DNA of 64,000 nt from Felixounavirus LF82P2. Positions 35,057 through 63,509 of this stretch are shown piece after piece; within the stretch, counting starts at the first letter, position 1; every line of letters begins with the position of its first letter. The position numbers and the translations under genes were made by a program. Below the pieces are notes generated by a model. The model did no database searches, was not told the origin of the DNA, and saw only the letters and a list, made by a program, of their open reading frames with translations. The stretch lies in the sequence record OZ035741.1; one strand, given 5' to 3'.

Positions 35057-37423
35057 ATGCGCATGGTAAATGACCACGCAGAAGTGATTAAGAGTTCAAC
35101 TTCTTTAGAGACGTCTCAAGCACAGATTACAATGACACCTGAGATGTTCAGCCTTTTGAGTTCTGGTGTATATACCTTTAAAGAAAGGGCAGTGATTCGT
35201 GAACTGTCATGTAACGCAGTAGATGCTCAGAAAGAAGCTGGAAAAGAGAACATCCCATTCCATGTGCATTTACCTACTCGTTTTGAGCCTTACTTCGAAG
35301 TTCGTGATTTTGGAACTGGATTGACTCATGATAAAGTTATGAGTTTGTACCTAAACTATGGAGCTTCTACGAAGAATGACTCTAATGACTACATTGGTGC
35401 AATGGGTATCGGCTCAAAGTCACCATTTGCAATTGCTCAGTCATTCACAGTATCTAGTTATGTTGACGGTGTTGTTAATAAGTACTCTGTTTATCTTGAG
35501 AATGGTATCCCTCAAGTAACTAAGCTGACAACTAACCAAACAAAAGAACCTAATGGTTTAGCTGTACGTGTGGCAGTTGCTGACCACCGTATCTCAAAGT
35601 TCTTTGAAGAAGCTGGGAATGTGTACTCATACTTCACTGTAAAACCAGAAAGTAATATTGAGTACGACGATGTATTAGCAGATATGAACGTAATTGCCCG
35701 TGAAGAAGGTGTTTATGATGCCATGATTCATAAGCACAGCTGGCGTTCTAGTGATAACAGGACAGAGTTTAATGTGGTGATGGGTAACATTGCCTATCCA
35801 GTGAACATGGAAGCGTTACTTGGTGATGATTTCTTCAAAGTCTTGCCAGAGTTTTTCCGTAGGAGCGTAGACCTTGTAAACATCTACATGCCTATTGGTT
35901 CAGTTGCTATTGCAGCTTCTCGTGAAGCATTGCAGATGAATGACACGACAAAAAATGTTATCATTGAGGCTACTAAAAAGATAACTGAAGCAATTACAAA
36001 GGATGTTATCAAAAAGATTAACAATCAGCCCACACTCATGGATGCTGCACAGGCTTATGCTGAGTTGCGTTTGAACTCACGAGAAATGTTTAATGCTGTG
36101 TGTCCAAAGCTAGAGTGGGGAGGCGTTAAGCTTGATTCTCTGGAAGAAGAGTTGCTAAACATTCGTCGCGGGATTATCTACGCAGAAGACGGCTCAGTCA
36201 TTTATGAACGTGACGGTAAAGGTAACATTAAGGTTGATAGGAACGGAAACAACATCCCTAAAGTAGATTACCTTTATGACCCAGTTGCTTATGTCAAGTT
36301 CAACTCTTTAGAGAGTAAGATTCGTGCAACAGCACTTTCCTACACTCAAGAGGCAAGTATGTTCAATATCTTTGGTGCAATGCGTAAAAGCCAAATTGAA
36401 CAGTTTTTGTTTGTTATAAATGACCGTCGCAATAAAAATGGTACTGAGAAGACTGTAGGACGCAATCAAATCTTGCGTGGTGCATGTCGAGACTATGCCA
36501 GTGAGTCTAGTCTGTTTCACAGATACAATGGTATTGTCTTTGTATTCTCAACTGAAAAAGAGTTAGATGACCTAATCAATCTACACAAACTTGATAAAAG
36601 CTTGTTAAAGATTGTGAAGATGTCTGATAAGGAACACCATTATCAGCGTAAAGAAGCTGTAAGAGGTGTTGTAAAACTCTGGAAAGCTGTTCCAGCAGAA
36701 GGTGTAGCTTCCTATAAAGAGGTTTCAGAGGACTTTGATACAATTGAAGAACCCCAGCTTTACATTAAGGCAATTGGTGACACAGTTGATGGTGAATGTT
36801 TTTGCTCATCCCCAGAAGATGTAGCTAAGTCAGTTGCTAATGTTATTGGAAAGACAGTCTATGTTTTCCGAAAAGCAAATTGGAAAAAGATACCAGAAGA
36901 CTGGATTGAAGTAGATGAGAAACTCTTGAACGATAGCTTAACTGATGTTCATTGGATTAATCATAACAGGTATATGACACGTATCTATATGAATGGTGTC
37001 CTTGACCTTACAAGCAGTTGGATTATTGCCAGAAACTTTACGTTCAATAACAGGAAGATTTCTCGTGGCTATTGCTATTCACGGGATACAAACAAAACTA
37101 TCTTCCTAGAAGGTAATGAAGAGGCTGTAGAGGCAATGTTTGGTAAAATCCAGTATGTTGCTGCACCATTTGCATACACTTACACTATTAGTGTGTTGAA
37201 AACTTTGAAAGATTGTCTTGACAACGATACAAAGCTTTACAAGAAAATTAAGAAAGCTGGTGACCGTATGGTTATTAAGGTGACAAACTACCTTTCAAAA
37301 AGAAAACAAGAAAACTTCTTGCTTTCCCATTTAGATTGGAATAAAGTGTCACCCATCGAAGTGAGTAAGTTCTTAGGTTTTGATGTGAAGTGTGTTCCAG
37401 AAGGAACTACAGTTTACGATTAA
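35057..37423 (+). CDS. rIIA-like protein (GHKL-type ATPase fold at N-terminus)
   Basis: 788 aa; N-box-like RELSCNAVDA and G1-like VRDFGTGL; followed by rIIB-like gene. Confidence 0.5.
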   Translation: MRMVNDHAEVIKSSTSLETSQAQITMTPEMFSLLSSGVYTFKERAVIRELSCNAVDAQKEAGKENIPFHVHLPTRFEPYFEVRDFGTGLTHDKVMSLYLNYGASTKNDSNDYIGAMGIGSKSPFAIAQSFTVSSYVDGVVNKYSVYLENGIPQVTKLTTNQTKEPNGLAVRVAVADHRISKFFEEAGNVYSYFTVKPESNIEYDDVLADMNVIAREEGVYDAMIHKHSWRSSDNRTEFNVVMGNIAYPVNMEALLGDDFFKVLPEFFRRSVDLVNIYMPIGSVAIAASREALQMNDTTKNVIIEATKKITEAITKDVIKKINNQPTLMDAAQAYAELRLNSREMFNAVCPKLEWGGVKLDSLEEELLNIRRGIIYAEDGSVIYERDGKGNIKVDRNGNNIPKVDYLYDPVAYVKFNSLESKIRATALSYTQEASMFNIFGAMRKSQIEQFLFVINDRRNKNGTEKTVGRNQILRGACRDYASESSLFHRYNGIVFVFSTEKELDDLINLHKLDKSLLKIVKMSDKEHHYQRKEAVRGVVKLWKAVPAEGVASYKEVSEDFDTIEEPQLYIKAIGDTVDGECFCSSPEDVAKSVANVIGKTVYVFRKANWKKIPEDWIEVDEKLLNDSLTDVHWINHNRYMTRIYMNGVLDLTSSWIIARNFTFNNRKISRGYCYSRDTNKTIFLEGNEEAVEAMFGKIQYVAAPFAYTYTISVLKTLKDCLDNDTKLYKKIKKAGDRMVIKVTNYLSKRKQENFLLSHLDWNKVSPIEVSKFLGFDVKCVPEGTTVYD

Positions 37424-37502: not shown

Positions 37503-38612
37503 ATGACTACTAAAACTAAAGCACAGATTGACGCAGAAATTTACAAACTGGTTAAAGAAGGTAAGCTGACTAAAACAGCTATTGCACAGAGATTTAATAC
37601 TTCAACCCGTTCAGTTGGTCGTGCTGTAGAGCGTCATGAAGCAACTTTAAAAGGGGATAAGAAGGCAACTTCTACACCAGCTACGAAGACTTTGAAGCAA
37701 GTTGCTAAGACATTTAAAAAGAAAGCTGACAAACCAGTTGAAAAGGTCGTTAAAGATGCTGTACAGAAAGCTCCAGTAAATAAACTGCATGAAGCTATGC
37801 AGAAAGATGACAAAATTGAGTACATGATTACTGGCGACTCTGTAATTATGACTTATGGTTCAGAATCTGAAATTGTTGAGTCTACTCATCCGAACTATCA
37901 AGAGATTGTAGTTCATGTTGTGAAAGGTGAGTTCAAGAAAGCCTTTGAACTGATGAATATTCGTAAGTCTATCGAAAACTTCACTCAGGGTGCTATCACA
38001 ATCAAAGGTGACAAGCTATTCTACGGTGCTGTTGAGATGCGTTCTACTCTGGTTGACCGTATTCTTCACATGATGAAGACTGGAGATAAAGGCTTTGAAC
38101 GCCTTGTGATGTTCTTCGAAAAACTGATGGAAAACCCATCTAAAGACTCTGTAGAACAACTTTGGGGCTTTGTATCTCACCTTGATGTTGAAATTGATGA
38201 AGAAGGCTACATCATTGGTTGGAAGAAAGTATCTACTCGTGAAGGTAAGCTGGTTGACTCCCACACCTACAAAGTTCCTAACGATTTGGGTAACATTGTA
38301 GAGATGCCACGTTGGATGGTTGATAATAACCGTAACGTGACTTGCTCTCAAGGTCTTCATGTTGGTGCTTGGGATTATGTTCGTAGCTTCTCAGGTGATA
38401 CAATCCTGAAAGTTCGTGTCCACCCACGAGATGTTGTATCTGTTCCAACTGATTACAATGATATGAAAATGCGTTCATCACGTTATGAAGTTGCAGCTAT
38501 CGTTGATAGCCAGCGTAATGTTCTGAAAGCATGGGATGGCAAGACTGAAGCTCTACATGTTATCGTTGGTACTGCTGGCGAACTTATTTCTCAGCGTAAA
38601 CGTGAAATCTAA
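37503..38612 (+). CDS. rIIB-like protein (putative)
   Basis: 369 aa immediately downstream of rIIA-like gene; assignment by synteny only. Confidence 0.3.
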   Translation: MTTKTKAQIDAEIYKLVKEGKLTKTAIAQRFNTSTRSVGRAVERHEATLKGDKKATSTPATKTLKQVAKTFKKKADKPVEKVVKDAVQKAPVNKLHEAMQKDDKIEYMITGDSVIMTYGSESEIVESTHPNYQEIVVHVVKGEFKKAFELMNIRKSIENFTQGAITIKGDKLFYGAVEMRSTLVDRILHMMKTGDKGFERLVMFFEKLMENPSKDSVEQLWGFVSHLDVEIDEEGYIIGWKKVSTREGKLVDSHTYKVPNDLGNIVEMPRWMVDNNRNVTCSQGLHVGAWDYVRSFSGDTILKVRVHPRDVVSVPTDYNDMKMRSSRYEVAAIVDSQRNVLKAWDGKTEALHVIVGTAGELISQRKREI

Positions 38613-38713: not shown

Positions 38714-39262
38714 ATGAAGAAATTGATTCTAGGTTTGTGCTTAATGTTTACAGCACACTTATCTTATGCAGTTGACTGCCCAGAGCTATCAATTAGCCAA
38801 AAAGTGAACATGTTAAAAGCTTACCAGTATGGCGAGAATAACATGGGTAAAGGTTGGGGTATCACTCTAGCAGCTATAGCCTTACAAGAGTCAGAGTTAG
38901 GTCTGAAGGTAGAAAATAAAAAGACACATGATTATGGTATTTTCCAGAATCACTTGAAGACTGTTGTAAAGCGTAACAAAATTAGCCCTAATGTGGCTAA
39001 AAAGAAACTCTTAAGAGACTTTGATTATGCTGCGAAGGAAACTCACAAAGAGCTTGAGTTTTGGACAAAGGTGCATGGTCAGCCAAAGTCAAAGAAGACT
39101 TTACAAAAAGTTTTAGCATCATATAATGCTGGGTATTCGTACAGAATCCCTAAAGCTAAGAAGTATTCTCAAGATGTCTATAACAACATGAAAGTAATTG
39201 CTCAATGTGAATTTGCAACAAACATTTCTAAGGTAAATCATGAAAAAATTAAGAAAGTCTGA
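38714..39262 (+). CDS. hypothetical secreted protein (possible lytic transglycosylase-like)
   Basis: Signal peptide; ALQESELGL..GIFQ weakly resembles SLT catalytic region. Confidence 0.35.
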   Translation: MKKLILGLCLMFTAHLSYAVDCPELSISQKVNMLKAYQYGENNMGKGWGITLAAIALQESELGLKVENKKTHDYGIFQNHLKTVVKRNKISPNVAKKKLLRDFDYAAKETHKELEFWTKVHGQPKSKKTLQKVLASYNAGYSYRIPKAKKYSQDVYNNMKVIAQCEFATNISKVNHEKIKKV

Positions 39263-39935
39263 TGAAGTACTGTGTCATGCTTATGACTTACATCCTCATG
39301 AGTTAGGTCTTGATTCCTGTGTATGGTCTCCAGAACAGTGTAGGGATTTTGAAGACACTGCAAGAGAAGTTGTATGTTCACTTGAAGAGTTCCACACATC
39401 AGAACCAATTGTGAACGTTGTGGACAAAGAGACTGGACAATCTATAGGAGTAAGTCGTGATAGCTTAGTCATAGTCAATAAAGACCTTGTAGAAAAAGGG
39501 AATCTCATCTTAGCAGATATTGATGGTGTTCTTACAAATTTTAATCACGAAGATTGTTCAACGGAATTGACTGATGGGTCATTCTCACAGTACACTAATC
39601 TTCTTGATTCTGTAAGAGCAAAACCAACGTATGTTTTTAGTATTATTGATGCAATTGCTAATCATGCTGCCATTGGACTCTTGACAGCGAGAGGTGAATC
39701 TCAGAGAATACCTACTGAGATGTTTTTAAGGCATAACATAGAGCATGACTACATGCTTTTTATGCGTGGTTTTGGAACTAACTCTATAAGTGCAGAAAGT
39801 TTGAAAGTGAGGATGATTCAGTCTTGCATCCTGCCTTACTTTAATATAGTATGTTTTATAGAAGACACAGAGAAGAATGTGCAGAAGGTGAACAGAATCC
39901 TTCCACACATTAAAACCATGTTAGTTAAACATTGA
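39240..39935 (+). CDS. hypothetical protein
   Basis: 231 aa ORF. Confidence 0.4.
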   Translation: MKKLRKSDEVLCHAYDLHPHELGLDSCVWSPEQCRDFEDTAREVVCSLEEFHTSEPIVNVVDKETGQSIGVSRDSLVIVNKDLVEKGNLILADIDGVLTNFNHEDCSTELTDGSFSQYTNLLDSVRAKPTYVFSIIDAIANHAAIGLLTARGESQRIPTEMFLRHNIEHDYMLFMRGFGTNSISAESLKVRMIQSCILPYFNIVCFIEDTEKNVQKVNRILPHIKTMLVKH

Positions 39936-39945
39936 GAGAAAACTT

Positions 39946-40410
39946 ATGAACAATATCATTACGGTAGCACTGGACGATACGGTAAACAAATCTGCAATAG
40001 TTCGTAAAATGATTCAAGGTAACTTTGAAGGTAAAATTTTTCGTGCTGTTAATGTAAAAGCTGATGGCAGCATTCGTGAATATCGTGCATTATTGAATGT
40101 TAAAAAACACGTAAAAGGTGCTGGTTCAACTACTGCACACAAAGAAAACCTGATGACTATCTATGATATGGGCAAGGCTTCAGAGTTAGGTGCTGAAGGT
40201 ATCGTTAAAGAAGGTGCTCCGTATCGCTCTTTCAATCTGGAAACTACTCTTATGCTTTCCTTTACAAGTGGTTCTAAAACAATCACTTATCTCTTTACTG
40301 ATGCTGCAACGGTATCTGCTATTAAGGATAGCACTGTCAAAGCTGGCGTAGTTGCTGCTGCAAAAGCTTCTTCGATGGCTGCGAATATCCTTGCTAAAGT
40401 CCTCGGTTAA
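39946..40410 (+). CDS. hypothetical protein
   Basis: 154 aa ORF, Ala/Gly-rich C-terminus. Confidence 0.4.
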   Translation: MNNIITVALDDTVNKSAIVRKMIQGNFEGKIFRAVNVKADGSIREYRALLNVKKHVKGAGSTTAHKENLMTIYDMGKASELGAEGIVKEGAPYRSFNLETTLMLSFTSGSKTITYLFTDAATVSAIKDSTVKAGVVAAAKASSMAANILAKVLG

Positions 40411-40420
40411 GGTTAAGATA

Positions 40421-40450
40421 CAGGCTCCTTCGGGAGCCTTTTTCATTTTA
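40421..40450 (+). terminator. rho-independent terminator
   Basis: CAGGCTCC-TTCG-GGAGCCT followed by TTTTCATTTT. Confidence 0.45.
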
Positions 40451-40462
40451 GGAGATTGTTAA

Positions 40463-40810
40463 ATGACATTTAAAGAGTTCTGTCAAGCTACTTTCATAAT
40501 TGTTTTCTTAGTTGGTGCAGGTGTCTGGGGAGGATACTCTTACAGAGACTATCAAGTTGCTGAAACTGAGCTAAATAATGAGAAACTAATAAGTGTTGCT
40601 AAAGATGCTTATCAGGAAGGTTTAGCCACACTCAGCACCAATTACAAAAATGATTTGAAAGATGTGCTTGCTAAGAATAAGCATACAAAAGAGGTACTAA
40701 CATATGAAAAAACTAAGCCAGAGTTTTATAATGTTTGTGTTACTGATAACTATGTCAGGGTGTTCAACGAACAAAGTGAGCAGTACATTCAAAAACTCCC
40801 AAGTAAGTGA
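40463..40810 (+). CDS. i-spanin-like protein (putative)
   Basis: N-terminal TM helix then helical periplasmic-type domain; 3' end overlaps lipoprotein ORF in another frame. Confidence 0.35.
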   Translation: MTFKEFCQATFIIVFLVGAGVWGGYSYRDYQVAETELNNEKLISVAKDAYQEGLATLSTNYKNDLKDVLAKNKHTKEVLTYEKTKPEFYNVCVTDNYVRVFNEQSEQYIQKLPSK

Positions 40811-40973
40811 GGGTGATAAGTACACCCAAGAAGAATCACGGTATATCATCAAAGGCAACACAGGCAGCGATGTAGCAGCAGCCCTTGAGTTCTATCGTGA
40901 CGGCTTTTACCAGTGCACAATCAAAGCTAACAACCTTATTGACATGATTTTATTAGGGAATAAGCAGCAATGA
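40704..40973 (+). CDS. o-spanin-like lipoprotein (putative)
   Basis: Signal peptide with lipobox LITMSGC; embedded/overlapping with preceding TM protein gene. Confidence 0.35.
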   Translation: MKKLSQSFIMFVLLITMSGCSTNKVSSTFKNSQVSEGDKYTQEESRYIIKGNTGSDVAAALEFYRDGFYQCTIKANNLIDMILLGNKQQ

Positions 40974-41239
40974 CAGAGAATCAAGATACTTTTTACGTAG
41001 AAGGGTACTTACTGTTACCACGACCAAAAGAGACTTATATGCGAATTGATTTCTCACCAACCATTATGGATAATGTGATGTGCCATATCTTTATGCAAGG
41101 TGTCACAGCACAGCTTAAACATGTTGGTAAAGAGTGCAAAATAAAGGTTGACACTCATCCAGAAATCAAAGAGAATCACTACACATGGTTCTTACCAGAT
41201 TCTAAAGAAATCTTAGCAGTTCTTAAAACGAGGAAGTAA
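40970..41239 (+). CDS. hypothetical protein
   Basis: 89 aa ORF. Confidence 0.35.
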   Translation: MTENQDTFYVEGYLLLPRPKETYMRIDFSPTIMDNVMCHIFMQGVTAQLKHVGKECKIKVDTHPEIKENHYTWFLPDSKEILAVLKTRK

Positions 41240-41241
41240 CT

Positions 41242-41568
41242 ATGCAGATTAATGGAAGAGACTTTGTAGCCGTTTACTATGAGAAAGGTAAAGAAGTTGG
41301 CGTAGCACAAGTATCTTATGGCAATGGTAAGTGGCTATATGGAACAATCGCAGTAGTAGGAACAAGAAGTGATACAAAAACCTTTAAAGATTGTGTTGAC
41401 CTTCTTGAAGAATCCATCCAGAATCATTGGTGTCTGATATGGATGACTGATAACGAAGTGATGGAGCGTTTCAAAAAGATTGATATCAACATTGACAGTA
41501 TTGAGCATGTTGATTTATATGAACTAACTGAGAAGGTAAACTATGAAAGTAATACTAGCCAGAGATAA
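41242..41568 (+). CDS. hypothetical protein
   Basis: 108 aa ORF. Confidence 0.35.
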   Translation: MQINGRDFVAVYYEKGKEVGVAQVSYGNGKWLYGTIAVVGTRSDTKTFKDCVDLLEESIQNHWCLIWMTDNEVMERFKKIDINIDSIEHVDLYELTEKVNYESNTSQR

Positions 41569-41770
41569 AAAGACACGAAAACTTATAAGGTCAGCAGTAT
41601 TCATTGGACGAAATGAGGTCATCCCATTTACAGCAAATGATGTGATAGCTTACAGGAAGAACTTAGTATTCACTGACTGCTTACGTGGCTTCATCTCTGA
41701 ACCATTGGAAGACTTTAAAAGTCGTTGTGGTAAAGGTATCATCATTCAAGAGGCAATTATTCATGGCTGA
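41543..41770 (+). CDS. hypothetical protein
   Basis: 75 aa ORF. Confidence 0.3.
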   Translation: MKVILARDKKTRKLIRSAVFIGRNEVIPFTANDVIAYRKNLVFTDCLRGFISEPLEDFKSRCGKGIIIQEAIIHG

Positions 41771-49548: not shown

Positions 49549-50082
49549 CTATAATTGTAGGTTGCATTCTTTACTTACCTCTTCAAGTTTAACCTCAGAG
49601 TCCTTAAGTCGTTTCTTATGAACTCTGAATCTCATTAGTGAGATGATGATACCAACTAAAGGAGCAGTATACAAGTACCAGATATCATGTAGCTTTGCAG
49701 TAATCTGTGTAATGGTCAAGTCTTGAGCTATGTAGCTGATTGCTGATACGGCTAGTAATGTTGCTAAGAAGAAAACCAGTATCATAACAATATTCAGACA
49801 ACCTCTGGCGTGGTATTCATGCTTAATGCACTTATTCTTCTCTTCAACAACCCTGTTGTAGTCATTTGTAAAGTCTCTGTAGAAAGCTTTCAAGTATTCT
49901 TGAGTGTAGCCTTCAAAGCAACCTGTACCGTACCAATAATCACCACCAAAATGTGCTATGATACCAGTATCCCCATTTGGTTTGGTTACTCTTAAAGAAG
50001 TATGGTGGCGAGTATCCTGATAGTCTATCTTATATCTTTCTTCGTAAATCATTTCCCAACCCCTCTCAATCGTTTGTTCCAT
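49549..50082 (-). CDS. hypothetical membrane protein
   Basis: Two hydrophobic helices in C-terminal half. Confidence 0.4.
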   Translation of the reverse strand: MEQTIERGWEMIYEERYKIDYQDTRHHTSLRVTKPNGDTGIIAHFGGDYWYGTGCFEGYTQEYLKAFYRDFTNDYNRVVEEKNKCIKHEYHARGCLNIVMILVFFLATLLAVSAISYIAQDLTITQITAKLHDIWYLYTAPLVGIIISLMRFRVHKKRLKDSEVKLEEVSKECNLQL

Positions 50083-52924: not shown

Positions 52925-53389
52925 TTACTTTGGATATACACTGTCAAGATAAATGTCAGCTTCCATTCTACGTCTGTTTTTCAGGCCGTTTGAAGTGACT
53001 TTCTGACCTTTGACTGTAACCTTGTTCCACCACTGCATAGCCTCTGCACAACCTACCTTATTACCAGCGTTGTGGCGCTTGATAAATGTGGAATCCTGCA
53101 TAGCTGTGATACCAATGTTGTATGTTTCACTTACAAGTGCGTCAAACTCATTCTGAGAAGTTGGAACCTTGATGGCTTTGTTCACTGCTGCAACGAACTT
53201 TTCAACATCTGCGAGAAGATACTGTTCAGCTTGTTCAGCGGTAATCTTCATACCCATCTTAACAGGTTTACCAGCAATACGGATAGTCCCGTACCCAATT
53301 GTTGGGATTCCAGCAGAATCTTCGTAAGCCTCTAGCTTAAGACCTTCAAAGAACTTAATAGCTTCTAAACCTTTTCTTGAGAGTTGCAT
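52925..53389 (-). CDS. lysozyme (T4 e-like, GH24 endolysin)
   Basis: N-terminal LEAIKFFEGLKLEAYEDSAGIPTIGYGT matches catalytic Glu/Asp/Thr region of T4-type lysozymes. Confidence 0.75.
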   Translation of the reverse strand: MQLSRKGLEAIKFFEGLKLEAYEDSAGIPTIGYGTIRIAGKPVKMGMKITAEQAEQYLLADVEKFVAAVNKAIKVPTSQNEFDALVSETYNIGITAMQDSTFIKRHNAGNKVGCAEAMQWWNKVTVKGQKVTSNGLKNRRRMEADIYLDSVYPK

Positions 53390-54522
53390 TATGCCTCCCC
53401 TGCTGGGTTAACAGTAACTGTTGCTGCATTAGATGTTACAGAACCACCTGCACCAGTAACTACACAGGTGTAGCTTCCTGCATCAGCAGCGGTTGCACCT
53501 TCTTTGGTGTAAGTTGCAGTAGTTGCATCGAGGATGTCTTCCTCACCTTTCTTCCACTGGTAACCTGTCGCACCTGTTGCCACAACATTCAGCGTTAAGG
53601 TATCACCTTCAGTGATTTCTTGATTGGTTGGCTGTTGAGTGATTACTGGAAGTGCATTCACAGTTACTACAGCAGCATTAGATTCCACTACACCACCTGC
53701 ACCTGTTACAACGCAAGTGTATGAACCAGCATCTGCTGGCAGCGCACCAGACTTGCTATAGGTAGCATCTGTAGCCGAAGGAATGTCAGAGCCATCTTTC
53801 TTCCACTGGTAGCCTGTTGCACCTGTTGCAGTCACTTCCAAGTTAATGCTTTCACCCTCATTGATGGTCTGGCTAGAAGGTTGCTGTGTAATCACAGGCA
53901 GTGCGTTGACAGTAACTGTTGCCGCATCTGAGGTAACACTTGTCCCAGCCTCTCCAGACACAACACAAGTATAGGAACCAGCATCAGAAGGTGCTACAGA
54001 CTGTTTTGTGTAGGTTGCAGATGTGGCGCTAGTGATATCCTCACCATTCTTTTTCCATTGATATCCAGTGGCATTAGTTGCAATAACGCTTAGGGTAAGT
54101 GTGCCACCTTCATTTACTGTTTGGTTGGTTGGTTGCTGAGTGATTGATGGTGGCTTGATAGCATCCTTCAGCTTAGCATTCAACATTGAGAATGGCTTAA
54201 CTCTTGCCAACCATTCACAATAAACTGTATCAACGTCTTTACCATTGATAATTGCATATTGTAAGTCCATGAAGAAGTCAGAAGTTCTCATTTGAGCGCC
54301 GATGCTGTAAAGCAACTCATCACTAAATGGGACTTTATAGTCGGGTTTGTAGTCAAACTTCTCAACTTCTGCAATATCAGCTTCAGGCCAATATGAACTA
54401 TAGGTAAGTGGTAAAATAGCCTCTTGATATGTTCTAAAATCATATCTCTTACCAGCCTTTACATTTGCAATGAAACCCTTCACAAACTCTTTGAAGTCTG
54501 GGTAAGTCTTTGCTTTAATCAT
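53389..54522 (-). CDS. virion-associated protein with three Ig-like repeats (putative)
   Basis: Three tandem ~90 aa repeats each containing GATGYQWKK..DAGSYTCVV (Ig-like); N-terminal domain paralogous to 54519-54890. Confidence 0.5.
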   Translation of the reverse strand: MIKAKTYPDFKEFVKGFIANVKAGKRYDFRTYQEAILPLTYSSYWPEADIAEVEKFDYKPDYKVPFSDELLYSIGAQMRTSDFFMDLQYAIINGKDVDTVYCEWLARVKPFSMLNAKLKDAIKPPSITQQPTNQTVNEGGTLTLSVIATNATGYQWKKNGEDITSATSATYTKQSVAPSDAGSYTCVVSGEAGTSVTSDAATVTVNALPVITQQPSSQTINEGESINLEVTATGATGYQWKKDGSDIPSATDATYSKSGALPADAGSYTCVVTGAGGVVESNAAVVTVNALPVITQQPTNQEITEGDTLTLNVVATGATGYQWKKGEEDILDATTATYTKEGATAADAGSYTCVVTGAGGSVTSNAATVTVNPAGEA

Positions 54523-58171: not shown

Positions 58172-58248
58172 AAAAGTTTATCTCTGTTTAGCTCAGCTTG
58201 GTAGAGCGTTCCGTTTGGGGCGGTAAGGCCGGAGGTTCAAGTCCTCCA
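58172..58248 (+). tRNA. tRNA-Pro (anticodon TGG)
   Basis: 7 bp acceptor stem, T-loop GGTTCAAGTCC, anticodon loop TTTGGGG, encoded CCA. Confidence 0.7.
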
Positions 58249-58265
58249 ACAGAGACCAAATTAAT

Positions 58266-58343
58266 GTTCCAGTAGACAAAATGGTATAGTCACCACTCTT
58301 TCAAAGTGGACATCTGAGGGTTCAAATCCCTTCTGGAACGCCA
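58266..58343 (+). tRNA. tRNA-Glu (anticodon TTC)
   Basis: Acceptor GTTCCAG/CTGGAAC, anticodon stem CCACT/AGTGG, loop CTTTCAA. Confidence 0.65.
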
Positions 58344-58434
58344 GTTTTGACAGAAGACCAAATACAGCAAACTTAATCTTATTCATCTGAAGGTAAATCG
58401 GACAAAGAAGAGATTTGGTCTGGTCATTAAGAAT

Positions 58435-58511
58435 TGCGGGTATAGAGAAAGGGCGTCTCACATGTCTCATTAGCATGGTATCGGCAGGTTCGACTCCTGC
58501 ACCCGCCTCCA
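58435..58511 (+). tRNA. tRNA-Met (anticodon CAT), atypical (T at position 37, mismatch at pair 1-72)
   Basis: Anticodon stem CATGT/GCATG, loop CTCATTA, T-loop GGTTCGACTCC. Confidence 0.5.
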
Positions 58512-58594
58512 AATTTACAGAAGACCGTTTACAGCAACATTTATTAAATTTTTAGCGGAAAAATTGAAAGATACGGTCTGGTAATACTAAACAT

Positions 58595-58671
58595 GGTTAG
58601 GAAGCACATAAGGTATGTGCGGTCGCCTGTTAAGCGAATGGCACAGGGTTCGAATCCCTGACTAACCGCCA
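58595..58671 (+). tRNA. tRNA-Asn (anticodon GTT)
   Basis: Anticodon loop CTGTTAA; T-loop GGGTTCGAATCCC; CCA encoded. Confidence 0.65.
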
Positions 58672-58740
58672 AATTTAGGAGAGAAGCGATTGCTCACCGA
58701 TTTGTAAGGTGCAAGTCCTTAGCCTGAATAGAAATTAAAT

Positions 58741-58828
58741 GTGTCGTTATCCCGTAGATGGTAGCGGTGGGGACTGTAAATCCCTTGTCATTGAGACTCG
58801 GTAGGTTCGACTCCTACACGGCACACCA
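58741..58828 (+). tRNA. tRNA-Tyr (anticodon GTA), long variable arm
   Basis: Acceptor GTGTCGT/ACGGCAC, anticodon stem GGGGA/TCCCT loop CTGTAAA, 88 nt. Confidence 0.7.
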
Positions 58829-58833
58829 ATAAA

Positions 58834-58911
58834 GGTTATGTAGTTTAATTTGGTTAAAATACTCCCCTGTCACGGGAGATGATGAGGGTTCAAATCCCTT
58901 CGTAACCGCCA
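58834..58911 (+). tRNA. tRNA-Asp (anticodon GTC)
   Basis: Acceptor GGTTATG/CGTAACC, anticodon stem CTCCC/GGGAG loop CTGTCAC. Confidence 0.7.
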
Positions 58912-59081
58912 ATTTTGAGAGGGCTATTTAGCCCCTCCCTTAAAGGGTTCTTACGAGTATCCTTTAAAGGAGCAGAAGACCAAATACAGCAAGTTACTTA
59001 AAATTTCAAGCCAATTTAATTTTGAAAAATTTAAAACTTGGTCTGGCTCAACAAATTTACAGAAGACCGTTTACAGCAAAA

Positions 59082-59178
59082 CTTAAACAATCTATTTCTC
59101 GGTAAAGAAAAGGCGAAGGTTCGATTCCTTCACTCGGCAGATGTCGAGTTGGTGTAATGGTAGCACTTAAGATGATAA
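59082..59178 (+). pseudogene. tRNA halves in permuted order (3' half upstream of 5' half); possible circularly permuted tRNA or rearranged pseudogene
   Basis: 3' part 59082-59139 (CTTAA, variable-arm hairpin, T-arm GAAGG-TTCGATT-CCTTC, acceptor ACTCGGC) then 5' part 59143-59178 (acceptor GTCGAGT, D-arm, TTAAG, loop ATGATAA). Confidence 0.35.
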
Positions 59179-59339
59179 ACAACGGTCTGGTAATTATCTT
59201 TGTAGATAAGTTATTAAGCTTACCTGTGAGTATGCGACCACAAAGGGTGAAAGGGTAAATTCTAGATTTAAACCCAAAAAGGCACATCGCTACAGACCTT
59301 AAGCAAGTCTGGGTAGCTTATCTACAAAGATAATTTAAT

Positions 59340-59415
59340 GGAAGTGTAGCAGAATGGTGATGCGGCAGACTTTTAATCTGACAGGCGATGGGTTCGAATC
59401 CCTCCACTTCTACCA
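59340..59415 (+). tRNA. tRNA-Lys (anticodon TTT)
   Basis: Acceptor GGAAGTG/CACTTCT, anticodon loop CTTTTAA, T-loop GGGTTCGAATCCC. Confidence 0.65.
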
Positions 59416-59419
59416 ATAT

Positions 59420-59496
59420 GGTTCAGTCGCAGATAAGGTAATGCAAGGGTCTCATAAGCCCTATGAATGTGGGTTCGAATCCCATCTGAACCTCCA
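59420..59496 (+). tRNA. tRNA-Met (anticodon CAT), GGG/CCC anticodon stem (initiator-like feature)
   Basis: Anticodon arm AGGGT-CTCATAA-GCCCT; acceptor GGTTCAG/CTGAACC fully paired. Confidence 0.65.
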
Positions 59497-59498
59497 AT

Positions 59499-59573
59499 TG
59501 TGGGTTAGCATAAATGGTAATGCAAACGGCTGATAACCGTTAGAAGAGGGTTCGATACCCTCACCTACAACCA
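59499..59573 (+). tRNA. tRNA-Ile (anticodon GAT)
   Basis: Anticodon arm AACGG-CTGATAA-CCGTT; T-loop GGGTTCGATACCC. Confidence 0.7.
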
Positions 59574-59591
59574 AGTTCAATAAAGTTGTTG

Positions 59592-59620
59592 ACATTGAGA
59601 TGTGACTACTTTATAGTAAC
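59592..59620 (+). promoter_or_regulatory. sigma70-like promoter inside tRNA cluster (TTGACA-17-TATAGT)
   Basis: Consensus -35 and good -10 in spacer after tRNA-Ile. Confidence 0.45.
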
Positions 59621-59821
59621 CTTAGTTTTCGTTGCGTAGCGTCTATTTTGCAAATTTAAAATAAATGCAAACGACAATGTTTTTCTGGCAGTAGCTTGAT
59701 AGGCTAAACACCAGTGAGGTCTTCCAATCCCTCATCAAAGAATTTGGCGTACTCGCCCACGGTATGATTAATAAGGTGGGCATCTTTAAGGGCTTTCTAA
59801 GAGAGTCTTTAAAGATAATTA

Positions 59822-59903
59822 CGGGGCGTATCTCAGCGGTCTTCTAAACCGCCGTTAACCGAGTAAGTGGAGTATGCGGGTTCGAGTCCTGCCGCCTCGA
59901 CCA
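59822..59903 (+). tRNA. atypical tRNA-like gene (possible Arg, anticodon TCT), non-canonical arm arrangement
   Basis: Acceptor CGGGGCG/CGCCTCG plus T-arm GCGGG-TTCGAGT-CCTGC and CCA; perfect hairpin GCGGT-CTTCTAA-ACCGC sits where the D-arm should be. Confidence 0.4.
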
Positions 59904-60046
59904 ATTTAGTTAGCAGATTACTTAGACGACCTAAGCGGGTCTTCCTGTAGGGAGGTGGTCTGTATCTCATGTTTTCCAGAACATGTAAATAATCTGAGAA
60001 GGGGCTTTACAGTGTTGAGATAATACGGTAAGCTTCGAATTATAGT

Positions 60047-60129
60047 ATGGGACGATGTTAAGACTCTAAGGCATGAGCAACGGCCTCCAAAACCGTTTCA
60101 AAGGGGTTCAACTCCTCCGTCCCATGCCA
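60047..60129 (+). tRNA. tRNA-Trp (anticodon CCA), enlarged D region (83 nt)
   Basis: Perfect acceptor ATGGGAC/GTCCCAT, anticodon arm ACGGC-CTCCAAA-ACCGT, T-loop GGGGTTCAACTCC. Confidence 0.5.
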
Positions 60130-60142
60130 AAGTCTTATTAGG

Positions 60143-60230
60143 GGTAGGTAGCGGCTAATGGCAGCCAAACAGTCTTGAAAACTGTTGCCACTGTAGAGAT
60201 ACGGTGAGGGTTCGACTCCTTTACTTACCG
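60143..60230 (+). tRNA. tRNA-Ser (anticodon TGA), long variable arm, CCA not encoded
   Basis: Anticodon arm ACAGT-CTTGAAA-ACTGT; long variable arm; T-loop GGGTTCGACTCC. Confidence 0.65.
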
Positions 60231-60488
60231 CCTAATAAGATTTTTAAAGCCAAGCTTCATTCGGATGTTGCTTTGGTATCCCTCGTGTATTGTCGTACAC
60301 ACTGATAAAACACCTAGTAGGTGTCACGGAGAAGAGATAATATCAAGCTCTCCAAAGGTTCTAGTCACCGGATTAAACAAGACTATGCAAAGACCTTTTA
60401 GGTCTTTTTAGAGGGCTTCTAAGGTTATTACAGCTTGTTGTGGAACCTTGTTGCTTAGGTTCTTAGAAGTTCTCTAAAAAGATTTAAT

Positions 60489-60566
60489 GGGAGATTGACG
60501 GTAATTGGTAAACCTATCTCGCTTAGAACGAGATGTTTGAGGGTTCGAATCCCTTGTCTCCTACCA
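60489..60566 (+). tRNA. tRNA-Leu (anticodon TAG) with short variable loop
   Basis: Anticodon arm TCTCG-CTTAGAA-CGAGA perfect; discriminator A; T-loop GGGTTCGAATCCC. Confidence 0.55.
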
Positions 60567-60573
60567 AATTAAT

Positions 60574-60649
60574 GCAGGTGTAGCAAAATGGTTATGCGGC
60601 TGACTCTTAATCAGTAAGACGATGGGTTCAATTCCCTCCACCTGTACCA
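60574..60649 (+). tRNA. tRNA-Lys (anticodon CTT)
   Basis: Scaffold similar to tRNA-Lys(TTT); anticodon arm GCTGA-CTCTTAA-TCAGT. Confidence 0.55.
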
Positions 60650-60655
60650 AACAAT

Positions 60656-60731
60656 GGGGTCATAGTTTATATGGTTAAAATTCGAGTTTTGCAAACTTGG
60701 GAACTGAGTTCAATTCTCAGTGACTCCACCA
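60656..60731 (+). tRNA. tRNA-Ala (anticodon TGC)
   Basis: Acceptor GGGGTCA/TGACTCC with G3-T70 wobble; anticodon loop TTTGCAA. Confidence 0.65.
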
Positions 60732-60737
60732 ATTAGT

Positions 60738-60812
60738 GCATCCATAGTTTAAACGGGAAAATTACAGTCTTCCAAACTGAGGTTGAGGGTTCGATTCCCT
60801 CTGGATGCTCCA
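60738..60812 (+). tRNA. tRNA-Gly (anticodon TCC)
   Basis: Acceptor GCATCCA/TGGATGC; anticodon arm ACAGT-CTTCCAA-ACTGA. Confidence 0.65.
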
Positions 60813-60826
60813 AATTAAGGTGTGAT

Positions 60827-61240
60827 ATGAAAATATGCAGTACTTGCAGAATACCAAAAGATGAAAGCTTATTCCATAAGAATAAGAACAAGAAAGACGG
60901 TCTTCAAAGTCAATGCAAAGATTGTGCAAGACTCCGTGATGCAAAGAGTTATCAAGCAAATGATAAAAGGAAAGAGGCTATTAAAAGCACTCGTAACTTC
61001 AAGAGAGAGCATAACAAGACTCTAGCTAGAAGGTACAAAGCTTTATGCAAATGTCATATATGTGGTGAGAAAGAACCAGTTGCACTGGATTTACACCATA
61101 CAGACCCTTCCCAGAAAGATTTGAATCCTGCATCACTTTATTCATACTCCACAAAAAGATTAAAAGATGAAATCAGAAAGTGCATTGTCTTGTGCGCTAA
61201 CTGTCACAGAAAAGTACATGCTGGTATCATAAAAGTTTAA
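60827..61240 (+). CDS. HNH endonuclease embedded in tRNA cluster
   Basis: Cys-rich N-terminus and C-terminal DLHHTD..CANCHRKVH HNH motif. Confidence 0.6.
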   Translation: MKICSTCRIPKDESLFHKNKNKKDGLQSQCKDCARLRDAKSYQANDKRKEAIKSTRNFKREHNKTLARRYKALCKCHICGEKEPVALDLHHTDPSQKDLNPASLYSYSTKRLKDEIRKCIVLCANCHRKVHAGIIKV

Positions 61241-61241
61241 T

Positions 61242-61318
61242 GCTGCTTTCGTATAATTGGCTATTACACATCCCTTGTAAGGATGGAAATGCAGGTTCGA
61301 GTCCTGTGAGCAGCACCA
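61242..61318 (+). tRNA. tRNA-Thr (anticodon TGT)
   Basis: Anticodon arm CATCC-CTTGTAA-GGATG; T-loop GGTTCGAGTCC. Confidence 0.7.
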
Positions 61319-61413
61319 ATTCAGAGGTCAAGTGAAAGACCGCTGGTGTCAACTGAAGACCGTAACAAATTCCACGGAGTTGAGTTAGCGGCACAACTTC
61401 AGACCTCTTTCAT

Positions 61414-61488
61414 ACTCGCTTAGTTTATATGGTAAAACATCACCCTTACAAGATGAAGAAAAAGGTTCAAGTCCTTTAGTGAGTACCA
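61414..61488 (+). tRNA. tRNA-Val (anticodon TAC), one mismatch in anticodon stem
   Basis: Acceptor ACTCGCT/AGTGAGT; anticodon arm TCACC-CTTACAA-GATGA (C-A mismatch). Confidence 0.5.
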
Positions 61489-61489
61489 T

Positions 61490-61567
61490 GTTCCAGTATC
61501 CCAATTGGCAGAGGATGCAAGCTCAAACCTTGTACTAGTGACGGTTCGAATCCGTCTTGGAACACCA
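61490..61567 (+). tRNA. tRNA-Leu (anticodon CAA) with short variable loop
   Basis: Anticodon arm GCAAG-CTCAAAC-CTTGT; discriminator A; T-loop GGTTCGAATCC. Confidence 0.55.
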
Positions 61568-61572
61568 ATTTT

Positions 61573-61648
61573 GCAGGATTAGTTCAAATGGATAGAGCAA
61601 CAGTCTACGAAGCTGTTAATAGGGGTTCGAATCCCTTATCCTGCGCCA
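61573..61648 (+). tRNA. tRNA-Arg (anticodon ACG)
   Basis: Acceptor GCAGGAT/ATCCTGC; anticodon arm ACAGT-CTACGAA-GCTGT. Confidence 0.7.
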
Positions 61649-61667
61649 ATTTAAAGAGGCTATTTAG

Positions 61668-62225
61668 ATGAGATATTTGAAGTATGCTTCATGGATTTTC
61701 TTAGCTTTGTTAGAACCATTTGCAGCAATCTTAGCAGTTATCTTAGCACCTTTTGTAGTTCCATTTTACAGTGAGAAGAAAGGACACTTACCTTTCGGAT
61801 TTAGATGGATGGAAACTTATGACAACCCAATTGATGGTGATGAAGGTCACGTTAAAAGATGGGCTAATATTAGATGGATTGGTAAGCTTGGTGTCTATAT
61901 GCAGAGAGTCGGTTGGCTCTGGAGAAACAAAGCTTATAACTTCTCTTACCATGTGTTAGGAAGAGATGTAAAAGATGTTACTAAGTGGAAAGGTAATATC
62001 AACGTAAGTTCTAACCCTGAAGATAATCAGACAGGTTATCTCCTAATGTGGAACAGCAATGCTTGGGGATTATTCGCTTTTATACCATCAATTAAAATCT
62101 TTGGTAAACAGTTCTACTGGAGAATTTATATTGGGTGGAAGCTAAAAAGTGTTGTCCCAGAAGAAAGAGCATTCTCAAGGGAAAGAGTTATGTTGGCATT
62201 CTTTATTCATCCACTAAGAAATTAA
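61668..62225 (+). CDS. hypothetical membrane protein embedded in tRNA cluster
   Basis: 185 aa; hydrophobic N-terminal segment, Trp-rich. Confidence 0.4.
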   Translation: MRYLKYASWIFLALLEPFAAILAVILAPFVVPFYSEKKGHLPFGFRWMETYDNPIDGDEGHVKRWANIRWIGKLGVYMQRVGWLWRNKAYNFSYHVLGRDVKDVTKWKGNINVSSNPEDNQTGYLLMWNSNAWGLFAFIPSIKIFGKQFYWRIYIGWKLKSVVPEERAFSRERVMLAFFIHPLRN

Positions 62226-62233
62226 AGATTTAA

Positions 62234-62309
62234 AGGGGATTAGTTTACAAGGTTAAAACCTCGGTCTTTGAAATCGAAGAAGTTGGTTCAATTCCAACAT
62301 CCCCCGCCA
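62234..62309 (+). tRNA. tRNA-Gln (anticodon TTG)
   Basis: Anticodon arm TCGGT-CTTTGAA-ATCGA; T-loop GGTTCAATTCC; pair 1-72 mismatched. Confidence 0.6.
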
Positions 62310-62311
62310 AT

Positions 62312-62390
62312 GCTCCATTACTCCAATTGGCAGAGAGGCCAGACTTAAAATCTGTGTTATGTATCGGTTCGAATCCGATATGGAGTACCA
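62312..62390 (+). tRNA. tRNA-Leu (anticodon TAA) with intermediate-length variable region
   Basis: Anticodon loop CTTAAAA; discriminator A; D region similar to tRNA at 61490. Confidence 0.5.
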
Positions 62391-62395
62391 AATTT

Positions 62396-62471
62396 AGCGG
62401 TATAGCATAACTGGCAATGCAACAGTCTCTGAAGCTGTCTTATTAAGGTTCAAATCCTTATGCCGCTGCCA
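62396..62471 (+). tRNA. tRNA-Gln (anticodon CTG)
   Basis: Anticodon arm ACAGT-CTCTGAA-GCTGT; T-loop GGTTCAAATCC. Confidence 0.55.
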
Positions 62472-62502
62472 CTTCTAAGGGTTCTTACGAGAGTCCTTAA
62501 AT

Positions 62503-62578
62503 GTGGCCTTATCATAAATGGTAATGACCCATGCTGTGAACATGGTCTATACGGGTTCAAATCCCGTAGGTCACCCCA
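62503..62578 (+). tRNA. tRNA-His (anticodon GTG)
   Basis: Anticodon arm CCATG-CTGTGAA-CATGG; discriminator C. Confidence 0.7.
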
Positions 62579-62583
62579 ATTTA

Positions 62584-62660
62584 TAGTCCAAGTAGCTTAT
62601 ATGGTTAAAGCGCGTGTCTGAAAAACATGAGAAGAGGGTTCAAATCCCACTGGACTACCA
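62584..62660 (+). tRNA. tRNA-Phe (anticodon GAA)
   Basis: Acceptor TAGTCCA/TGGACTA; anticodon loop CTGAAAA. Confidence 0.6.
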
Positions 62661-62676
62661 ATTTCAAAGGTGCTTA

Positions 62677-63411: not shown

Positions 63412-63412
63412 T

Positions 63413-63505
63413 GGAAGATTAACCCTAAAAGGTAAGGGAGCAGTTTGCTAAACTGACAGTAGCTGAGAAATCGGTGTACCAGTTCAAGTCTGGTATCTTC
63501 CTCCA
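63413..63505 (+). tRNA. tRNA-Ser (anticodon GCT), long variable arm
   Basis: Perfect acceptor GGAAGAT/ATCTTCC; anticodon loop TTGCTAA; 93 nt. Confidence 0.65.
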
Positions 63506-63509
63506 ATTT

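What the first reader, a model, noticed from the sequence alone, without database searches (positions are those of the whole stretch)
40463..40973. Overlapping TM-protein and lipoprotein genes resembling an embedded spanin pair
ORF 40463-40810 has an N-terminal transmembrane helix and a helical ectodomain. ORF 40704-40973 starts inside it in another frame and encodes a lipoprotein (lipobox LITMSGC). This overlapped layout is characteristic of i-spanin/o-spanin pairs, yet the lysozyme gene is 12 kb away on the other strand and no holin was identified.
Basis: inference. Interest (0 to 1): 0.4.

Follow-up and report, generated by a model that had tools for sequence, protein, structure and literature searches.

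The report
Known Felix O1-type overlapped spanin genes
These two overlapping genes are the already catalogued inner- and outer-membrane spanin pair of a Felix O1-like phage of E. coli and Salmonella, thought to break the host's outer membrane at the end of infection, so the finding is correct but ordinary.

Summary
ORF 40463-40810 (+, 115 aa) has an N-terminal transmembrane segment. ORF 40704-40973 (+, 89 aa) starts inside it in the +1 frame, shares 107 nt with it, and carries a canonical lipobox (LITMSG|C).

The window is a Felixounavirus genome, 100% identical over this stretch to Felixounavirus NRG857CP1 and 99.8% to Escherichia phage ekra. This gene pair is listed for Felix O1 in the spanin census of Kongari et al. 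2018 (PMC6139136) as an 'overlapped' two-component spanin, with the same lengths (115 and 89 aa) and the same 107-nt overlap. Several GenBank records annotate it as i-spanin/o-spanin.

Across 29 related phage contigs both ORFs are intact with identical geometry. Third-codon-position variation follows the i frame before the overlap and the o frame after it. Variation drops and loses periodicity inside the overlap. Both genes are therefore truly coding.

Two corrections apply. The layout is 'overlapped', not 'embedded'. The distance to the lysozyme gene (52925-53389, minus strand) is normal, because Felix O1-like phages, like T4, scatter their lysis genes.

Spanin function rests on signals, architecture and family membership. 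I found no experimental test for this family.

Verdict: already known; low interest.

The parts
40463..40810 (+). i-spanin gene (115 aa): N-terminal transmembrane segment at residues ~6-24 (nt 40478-40534), then a ~90-residue periplasmic domain with an invariant Cys92
   Evidence: ORF. Hydropathy. phrog_1152 'Rz-like spanin' at E=8e-42. 113/115 identical to Felix01 p014 in the spanin census. Intact at 115 aa in 29 related loci. Third-position periodicity p=7e-14.
40704..40973 (+). o-spanin gene (89 aa precursor): signal peptide with lipobox LITMSG|C (Cys20 codon at 40761-40763); 70-residue mature lipoprotein with Ser at +2 and an invariant Cys71
   Evidence: ORF. PROSITE-type lipobox rule met. 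phrog_4180 at 1e-49, and a weak hit to phrog_456 'Rz-like spanin' at 2e-3. Named o-spanin in Moogle and ekra. Intact at 89 aa in 29 loci and in a 53%-identity relative. Third-position periodicity in its own frame downstream of the i-spanin stop, p=1e-13.
40704..40810 (+). 107-nt dual-coding overlap (o-spanin in the +1 frame of the i-spanin). It encodes the i-spanin C-terminus, and the o-spanin signal peptide, lipobox and first mature residues.
   Evidence: Only 24% of sites are variable here, against 39% and 42% in the flanks. There is no codon-position periodicity (chi-square p=0.69). Fisher test for overlap against non-overlap gives p=0.002. The overlap length equals that listed for Felix O1.
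40450..40454 (+). Shine-Dalgarno AGGAG, 8 nt upstream of the i-spanin ATG
   Evidence: Read from the sequence. The same motif is recorded for Felix01 p014 in the census table.
40690..40694 (+). Shine-Dalgarno AGAGG, 9 nt upstream of the o-spanin ATG, inside the i-spanin gene
   Evidence: Read from the sequence. It supports 40704 as the true start rather than the truncated start at 40752 used in some records.
40422..40449 (+). Terminator-like GC-rich hairpin plus T-run, between the upstream 154-aa gene and the i-spanin gene
   Evidence: Consensus scan. A 'terminator' is also annotated under the matched stretch in phages ASO1A and ASO1B. Its function is not tested.

Best explanation
This is the two-component spanin of a Felix O1-like myophage (genus Felixounavirus), in the 'overlapped' gene arrangement.

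What the sequence shows:
- The 115-aa product carries an N-terminal transmembrane helix.
- The 89-aa product carries a lipoprotein signal peptide and no inner-membrane retention residue at +2.

Inferred by analogy with lambda Rz/Rz1:
- The 115-aa protein anchors in the inner membrane and projects a largely helical ~90-residue domain into the periplasm.
- The 89-aa protein is exported, lipid-modified at Cys20, cleaved by signal peptidase II and sorted to the inner leaflet of the outer membrane.
- When the holin and the endolysin (52925-53389, minus strand) have removed the peptidoglycan, the complexes are free to act. They disrupt the outer membrane, most likely by fusing it with the inner membrane, and this completes lysis.

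The 107-nt overlap in the +1 frame saves coding space and keeps the two partners genetically linked. It is not needed mechanistically.
For: - Identity of the window: megablast gives 100% to Felixounavirus NRG857CP1 and 99.8% to phage ekra, with 257 matching phage records that are almost all E. coli, Salmonella, Shigella or Citrobacter phages.
- Prior annotation: i-spanin and o-spanin CDSs in ekra; 'Rz-like spanin' in RefSeq VpaE1; o-spanin in Moogle.
- Published census: Kongari et al. 2018 (PMC6139136) list Felix01 as 'ovl', 115 aa plus 89 aa, 107-nt overlap, in the JH2 i- and o-spanin families.
- Family match: phrog_1152 'Rz-like spanin' at E=8e-42.
- Signals: transmembrane segment and PROSITE-type lipobox, with Ser at +2.
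- Conservation: 29 IMG/VR loci with 76-100% i-spanin identity all keep both ORFs, the same start offset, the lipobox Cys and both periplasmic Cys. A 53%-identity relative keeps the 89-aa lipoprotein and the 107-nt overlap.
- Dual coding: the codon-position substitution pattern switches from the i frame to the o frame at the i-spanin stop, and variability is depressed in the overlap.
- Genomic setting: Felix O1-like lysis genes are documented as scattered. The T4 spanin genes pseT.3 and pseT.2 are likewise unlinked to e and t, and sit next to the polynucleotide kinase gene.
Against: - I found no experimental test of this spanin family. [quoted passage not shown]
- Neither protein resembles lambda or T4 spanins in sequence. 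There are no Pfam hits above noise. BLASTP to T4 PseT.3 gives E=18, and the match to PseT.2 covers the signal peptide only.
- The census records no predicted coiled coil in the Felix O1 i-spanin (supplementary file 4).
- The mature o-spanin has no proline at all, so two motifs important in lambda are absent.
- The AF2 monomer models have low confidence: pLDDT 60.6 and 45.2.
- The orientation of the transmembrane helix is not strongly dictated by flanking charges.
- A terminator-like hairpin sits directly upstream, so the timing and level of expression are unknown.
Confidence: 0.9

Rival explanations
1. Both genes are real, but the lipoprotein is not a spanin. It would be an envelope lipoprotein with another role, for example superinfection exclusion by blocking a receptor (as T5 Llp or the lambdoid Cor do). 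The transmembrane protein would be an unrelated membrane protein that merely overlaps it.
For: The o-spanin's own PHROG (phrog_4180) is labelled 'unknown function', and its link to a spanin PHROG is weak (phrog_456, E=2e-3). No experimental data exist for this family. The pair lies among early-type genes (rIIA, rIIB, polynucleotide kinase) and not next to the endolysin.
Against: The strict pairing of a TMD protein gene with an overlapped +1-frame lipoprotein gene is kept unchanged down to 53% identity. The i-spanin hits a spanin PHROG at E=8e-42. Periplasmic Cys are invariant in both partners, which fits the disulfide rule for spanins. The only other lipobox ORF in these 64 kb has no transmembrane partner and no C-terminal TMD. 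The T4 spanins are equally remote from its endolysin.
Confidence: 0.06
2. The pair forms an envelope-spanning complex, but its main role is in lysis timing or lysis inhibition together with the neighbouring rIIA/rIIB genes, or in DNA entry or exclusion, rather than outer-membrane disruption.
For: The pair lies about 1.9 kb downstream of rIIA (35057-37423) and rIIB (37503-38612) on the same strand. Coiled-coil and proline-rich motifs are absent.
Against: Proximity is the only argument. In T4 the bona fide spanins also lie in an early-gene region beside pseT. More than 120 catalogued i-spanins lack coiled-coil predictions.
Confidence: 0.03
3. The 89-aa ORF is a chance open frame inside and beyond a real gene, and is not translated.
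For: Many gene callers omit or truncate it.
Against: Downstream of the i-spanin stop, 46 of 55 third positions in the o frame vary, against 15 and 8 at first and second positions (p=1e-13). The overlap shows depressed, aperiodic variation. The ORF, its ATG, its lipobox and its length are kept in all 30 relatives examined. It has a good Shine-Dalgarno sequence at the right spacing. Truncation by gene callers is a documented artefact for overlapped o-spanins.
Confidence: 0.01

Closest known systems
[quoted passage not shown] 2018, PMC6139136)
   Same: It is essentially the same genes. The i-spanin is 113/115 identical to the listed Felix01 sequence. The o-spanin has the same 89-aa length, the overlap is the same 107 nt, and the neighbours are the same.
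   Different: Only two conservative substitutions in the i-spanin (Q40E, V55A relative to Felix O1) and a few in the o-spanin. There is no structural or architectural difference.
Phage lambda Rz/Rz1 (paradigm two-component spanin)
   Same: An inner-membrane type II protein plus an outer-membrane lipoprotein, encoded by genes sharing DNA, with the lipoprotein in the +1 frame. Both partners have periplasmic cysteines. The inferred role is outer-membrane disruption after peptidoglycan removal.
   Different: Lambda Rz1 is wholly embedded in Rz, whereas here the o-spanin runs 163 nt past the i-spanin stop (overlapped class). There is no detectable sequence similarity. Rz1 is proline-rich and unstructured, while this o-spanin has no proline and a predicted C-terminal helix. 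No coiled coil is predicted for the Felix O1 i-spanin. Lambda's genes sit in a lysis cassette; these do not.
Phage T4 PseT.3/PseT.2 spanins
   Same: The spanin genes are unlinked to the holin and endolysin and lie close to the polynucleotide kinase gene (pseT) in an early-gene region. The sizes are similar (117 and 99 aa in RefSeq). The o-spanin has a helical C-terminal part.
   Different: The T4 genes are of the 'separated' class (4-nt junction overlap) and lie upstream of pseT rather than downstream. There is no significant sequence similarity. They belong to different PHROGs: 739/812 against 1152/4180. The T4 i-spanin has no periplasmic Cys, whereas this one has Cys92.

Membership tests
Two-component spanin (functional class; criteria of Summer et al. 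2007 as recalled from memory, and Kongari et al. 2018) | i-spanin: small protein with a single N-terminal transmembrane domain and the rest of the chain beyond it | tested here: met
   The Kyte-Doolittle maximum is 1.75 over residues 6-24, with no other hydrophobic segment. The N-in/C-out orientation itself is not testable with these tools.
Two-component spanin (functional class; criteria of Summer et al. 2007 as recalled from memory, and Kongari et al. 2018) | o-spanin: signal peptidase II signal with a lipobox and Cys, and no inner-membrane retention signal (Asp at +2) | tested here: met
   MFVLLITMSGC fits the PROSITE-type rule with Cys at position 20. K2 and K3 are present. The +2 residue is Ser. 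The lipobox Cys is invariant in 30 relatives.
Two-component spanin (functional class; criteria of Summer et al. 2007 as recalled from memory, and Kongari et al. 2018) | The two genes are adjacent, with the i-spanin first, in an embedded, overlapped or separated arrangement | tested here: met
   Overlapped arrangement: the o-spanin starts at nt 242 of the i-spanin gene in the +1 frame, with 107 nt shared.
Two-component spanin (functional class; criteria of Summer et al. 2007 as recalled from memory, and Kongari et al. 2018) | Both reading frames are genuinely protein-coding | tested here: met
   Codon-position periodicity gives p=7e-14 (i frame) and p=1e-13 (o frame). Variation in the overlap is depressed and aperiodic.
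Two-component spanin (functional class; criteria of Summer et al. 2007 as recalled from memory, and Kongari et al. 2018) | At least one periplasmic cysteine available for homotypic intermolecular disulfide bonds | tested here: met
   i-spanin Cys92 and o-spanin Cys71 are invariant in all relatives. Disulfide formation itself is not tested.
Two-component spanin (functional class; criteria of Summer et al. 2007 as recalled from memory, and Kongari et al. 2018) | Phage of a Gram-negative host | tested here: met
   The nearest records are phages of E. coli, Salmonella, Shigella and Citrobacter.
Two-component spanin (functional class; criteria of Summer et al. 2007 as recalled from memory, and Kongari et al. 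2018) | The two periplasmic domains bind each other and the pair is required for outer-membrane disruption in lysis | not testable with these tools
   This needs genetics or biochemistry. I found no published test for this family.
Felix O1 / JH2 spanin sequence families (at least 40% identity over at least 40% of length; Kongari et al. 2018) | Sequence identity to listed members | tested here: met
   113/115 identical to the listed Felix01 p014. The o-spanin is 80% identical to the Moogle o-spanin. Felix01 and Moogle are members of both JH2 families.
'Embedded' spanin architecture (lambda type), as in the finding's title | The o-spanin gene lies entirely within the i-spanin gene | tested here: not met
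   The o-spanin ends at 40973, 163 nt beyond the i-spanin stop at 40810. The census classes the pair as 'ovl'.
Lambda Rz / Rz1 and T4 PseT.3 / PseT.2 sequence families | Detectable sequence homology | tested here: not met
   There are no Pfam hits above noise for either protein. BLASTP to T4 PseT.3 gives E=18, and the match to PseT.2 gives E=0.04 over the signal peptide only. The PHROGs differ.

The most novel reading that the evidence does not exclude
The Felix O1-type pair has no predicted coiled coil in the i-spanin, no proline in the o-spanin, and a conserved C-terminal o-spanin helix with the motif LEFYRDGFYQC.IKANNLID. It might therefore disrupt the outer membrane by a mechanism different from the lambda coiled-coil/proline-rich fusion model, or carry a second role linked to the neighbouring rII genes. 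Nothing here excludes that, because no member of the family has been tested.
Probability: 0.08. Interest if true: 0.35.

Novelty: already known. Interest (0 to 1): 0.07.

Why it matters
It matters little beyond correct annotation. The pair is already in the published spanin catalogue and in several GenBank records.

The practical point is that automatic gene callers often drop or truncate the o-spanin, starting it at Met17 and so removing the signal peptide. The true start is 40704.

The real open question in these phages is the identity of the holin, which lies outside this finding.

Tried and rejected
- Homology to T4 PseT.3/PseT.2, suggested by the shared linkage to the polynucleotide kinase gene: BLASTP shows no significant similarity, and the gene order relative to pseT differs. 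I treat this as analogy only.
- Pfam: nothing above noise for either protein.
- Deep searches for distant o-spanin relatives: the word-indexed search found only Ounavirinae-type proteins at 79% identity or more, plus truncated gene calls. The exhaustive HMMER search of 1.8 billion representatives found 8 hits. Only P0041 and P0045 look like genuine distant relatives. Hits to proteins of 600-4000 aa with many matched stretches were not examined and are probably compositional.
- AF2 monomer models of both proteins came out at low confidence (pLDDT 60.6 and 45.2). I therefore did not run structure-library searches, and I use the models only as weak support for helical content.
- The original Summer et al. 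2007 paper could not be read, as it is not held. What I say about it is from memory.
- A second spanin system: the only other lipobox ORF in the window (7416-7652, minus strand) has no transmembrane partner and no C-terminal TMD, so it is neither a second two-component spanin nor a u-spanin.

Full report
**Observation**

- ORF 40463-40810 (+) encodes 115 aa beginning MTFKEFCQATFIIVFLVGAGVWGG...
- ORF 40704-40973 (+) encodes 89 aa beginning MKKLSQSFIMFVLLITMSGCSTNK...
- The second ORF starts 241 nt into the first, in the +1 frame. The two share 107 nt, and the second runs 163 nt beyond the stop of the first.

A hydropathy scan gives one transmembrane-grade segment in the 115-aa protein, at residues 6-24 (mean Kyte-Doolittle 1.75). 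The 89-aa protein meets the PROSITE-type lipoprotein rule: MFVLLITMSGC, Cys20, two Lys near the N-terminus. The +2 residue of the mature protein is Ser, so there is no inner-membrane retention signal.

Both ATGs are preceded by Shine-Dalgarno motifs at 8 and 9 nt (AGGAG at 40450-40454, AGAGG at 40690-40694).

Only two ATG-ORFs of at least 40 aa in all six frames of the 64-kb window meet the lipobox rule. Shuffled sequence gives 0.45 on average.

**Are both frames really coding?**

I fetched 29 related loci from IMG/VR, with i-spanin identity from 76 to 100%. Every one keeps a 115-aa and an 89-aa ORF. All share the same start offset, the same overlap, a lipobox ending [MI]SGC, and invariant Cys92 (i-spanin) and Cys71 (o-spanin).

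Variable sites in 28 distinct sequences:

| Region | Frame read | Variable sites at codon position 1 / 2 / 3 | Test |
|---|---|---|---|
| Upstream of the overlap | i frame | 22 / 14 / 59 | p=7e-14 |
| Downstream of the i-spanin stop | o frame | 15 / 8 / 46 | p=1e-13 |
| Inside the overlap | i frame | 9 / 7 / 10 | no periodicity, p=0.69 |

Only 24% of sites vary inside the overlap, against 39% and 42% in the flanks (Fisher p=0.002). This is the signature of two overlapping protein-coding genes.

A more distant relative from a public sequencing run (i-spanin 53% identical) has the same 89-aa lipoprotein (lipobox SMSAC) with the same 107-nt overlap.

**What it is**

The window is a Felixounavirus, a Felix O1-like myophage. 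Megablast of 39900-41600 gives 100% identity to Felixounavirus NRG857CP1 and 99.8% to Escherichia phage ekra. There are 257 matching phage records, almost all from E. coli, Salmonella, Shigella and Citrobacter phages.

Existing annotation of the two genes:
- In ekra they are annotated i-spanin and o-spanin.
- In RefSeq VpaE1 the first is 'Rz-like spanin' and the second 'hypothetical protein'.
- The i-spanin matches phrog_1152 'Rz-like spanin' at E=8e-42.
- The o-spanin matches phrog_4180 (unlabelled) at 1e-49, and only weakly a spanin PHROG (phrog_456, 2e-3).

The spanin census of Kongari et al. 2018 (PMC6139136) lists Felix01 (NC_005282) p014 with a sequence 113/115 identical to the window protein. 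It records an 89-aa o-spanin, architecture 'ovl' and a 107-nt overlap. It places both proteins in the 'JH2' i- and o-spanin families together with Moogle, Mushroom, wV8, UAB_Phi87 and others. The finding therefore rediscovers a catalogued gene pair.

First, the title calls the pair 'embedded'. In the standard nomenclature, 'embedded' means the o-spanin gene lies wholly inside the i-spanin gene, as in lambda Rz/Rz1. This pair is 'overlapped'.

Second, the distance to the lysozyme is not a difficulty.
- The endolysin is at 52925-53389 on the minus strand (PF00959, E=9e-41).
- The Felix O1 genome paper notes that holin-lysin cassettes are absent and that, as in T4, no holin gene lies beside the lysin (PMC3185647).
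- The Moogle and Meda genome papers state that Felix O1-like lysis genes are scattered (PMC4319497; PMC6486253).
- The T4 spanin genes pseT.3 and pseT.2 are likewise unlinked to e and t. They lie beside the polynucleotide kinase gene, as this pair does; the kinase homologue is at 39240-39935.

Third, on the holin: Moogle's annotators called CPT_Moogle54 a 'putative holin'. Its homologue is in this window at 1618-1989 (+). It is 123 aa, with one N-terminal hydrophobic segment and a long helical tail. It has no labelled family. The Meda paper says a holin was not identified, so this remains open.

**Mechanism**

*Shown here:* the membrane-targeting signals, the architecture, the coding status of both frames, the invariant periplasmic cysteines, and family membership.

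*Inferred by analogy with lambda Rz/Rz1*, as summarised in PMC6139136:
- The 115-aa protein is a type II inner-membrane protein.
- The 89-aa protein is an outer-membrane lipoprotein.
- Their periplasmic domains (about 90 and 70 residues) associate to span the periplasm, with homotypic disulfides.
- After the endolysin removes the peptidoglycan, the complex disrupts the outer membrane, probably by fusing it with the inner membrane.

**Caveats**

- The census authors themselves say that essentially all experimental work is on lambda. My literature searches found no test of the Felix O1 family.
- The family lacks two features important in lambda. No coiled coil is predicted in the i-spanin, and there is no proline at all in the o-spanin. 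This is common among catalogued spanins.
- The AF2 monomer models are of low confidence: pLDDT 60.6 for the i-spanin, which comes out mostly helical, and 45.2 for the o-spanin, which shows a C-terminal helix at residues 54-84. They give only weak support for the 'helical ectodomain'.

**Comparison with known families**

The pair has no significant sequence similarity to the T4 spanins and no Pfam hit above noise. It therefore works like Rz/Rz1 and PseT.3/PseT.2 but is not a sequence relative of either. It is a member of the Felix O1/JH2 families.

The o-spanin family is narrow. The word-indexed search found only proteins of at least 79% identity. An exhaustive HMMER scan found only two plausible distant relatives. 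One of them, P0045, is an 88-aa lipoprotein that shares the C-terminal motif around the conserved Cys and falls in phrog_2425.

**Rival explanations**

- A chance ORF is excluded by the substitution pattern.
- A non-spanin lipoprotein, such as a superinfection-exclusion factor, overlapping an unrelated membrane protein cannot be formally excluded without genetics. It is disfavoured by the strictly conserved pairing, the spanin PHROG match and the conserved cysteines.
- A role tied to the neighbouring rIIA/rIIB genes has no support beyond proximity.

**Verdict**

The feature is already known and ordinary for this phage group. Interest is low.

Noticed in passing
window 1423-1989 (+): ORF 1618-1989 is the homologue of Moogle's annotated 'putative holin'. 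It is 123 aa with one N-terminal hydrophobic segment and a long helical tail, and matches phrog_4038 (unknown function). A 64-aa hydrophobic ORF (1423-1617, phrog_402, unknown function) precedes it. Both lie between the tail-fibre gene and thymidylate synthase. The holin of Felix O1-like phages is still unidentified according to the Meda paper, and the 123-aa protein's TMD-plus-helical-tail layout would also fit an i-spanin-like protein.
   Followed up: partly
window 7416-7652 (-): This is the only other ORF in the window with a canonical lipobox: 78 aa, MWKVVIALGVIFLSGC..., phrog_902 (unknown function). It lies between the DNA polymerase and DNA ligase genes, with no transmembrane partner beside it. 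It might be an envelope or exclusion lipoprotein.
   Followed up: partly
window 38714-39262 (+): A 182-aa protein with a cleavable-looking signal peptide and a sub-threshold match to the SLT lytic transglycosylase domain (PF01464, E=1.2e-3, 18.9 bits against a cut-off of 21.3). It is annotated 'putative lysin' in phage ekra. It lies between rIIB and the polynucleotide kinase gene, 1.2 kb upstream of the spanins.
   Followed up: partly
window 40704-40752; L001 3853-4074; L035 1289-1510: Public gene calls often truncate the o-spanin to 73 or 68 aa by starting at Met17 (window 40752), which removes the signal peptide. One such truncated cluster stands for 303 member sequences. In RefSeq VpaE1 the full-length CDS is labelled only 'hypothetical protein'.
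   Followed up: yes
window 40422-40449 (+): A terminator-like hairpin (AGGCTCC-TTCG-GGAGCCT) with a T-run ends 1 nt before the i-spanin Shine-Dalgarno sequence. Spanin expression must therefore depend on read-through or on a promoter that was not recognised.
   Followed up: no
window 58182-63585 (+): An array of 25 tRNA genes interspersed with small ORFs, typical of Felix O1-like phages.
   Followed up: no
window 53389-54522 (-): The 377-aa ORF immediately upstream of the endolysin contains three tandem repeats of about 90 aa that look Ig-like (...ITQQPTNQ...ATGYQWKK...AGSYTCVV...). Its shorter counterpart in VpaE1 is annotated 'tail protein'.
   Followed up: no
window 49549-50082 (-): A 177-aa protein of unknown function (phrog_4343) with two hydrophobic segments in its C-terminal half. 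It is another membrane protein on the endolysin-side strand that could be considered in a holin search.
   Followed up: no
protein P0045 (from the exhaustive search; no locus): An 88-aa lipoprotein (lipobox LVSGC), 32% identical to the o-spanin. It shares the C-terminal motif LE[FY][YW]R[DN]..[FY].[QE]C.I..N.LID and falls in phrog_2425 (unknown function). This suggests that phrog_2425 is an unlabelled o-spanin family.
   Followed up: partly
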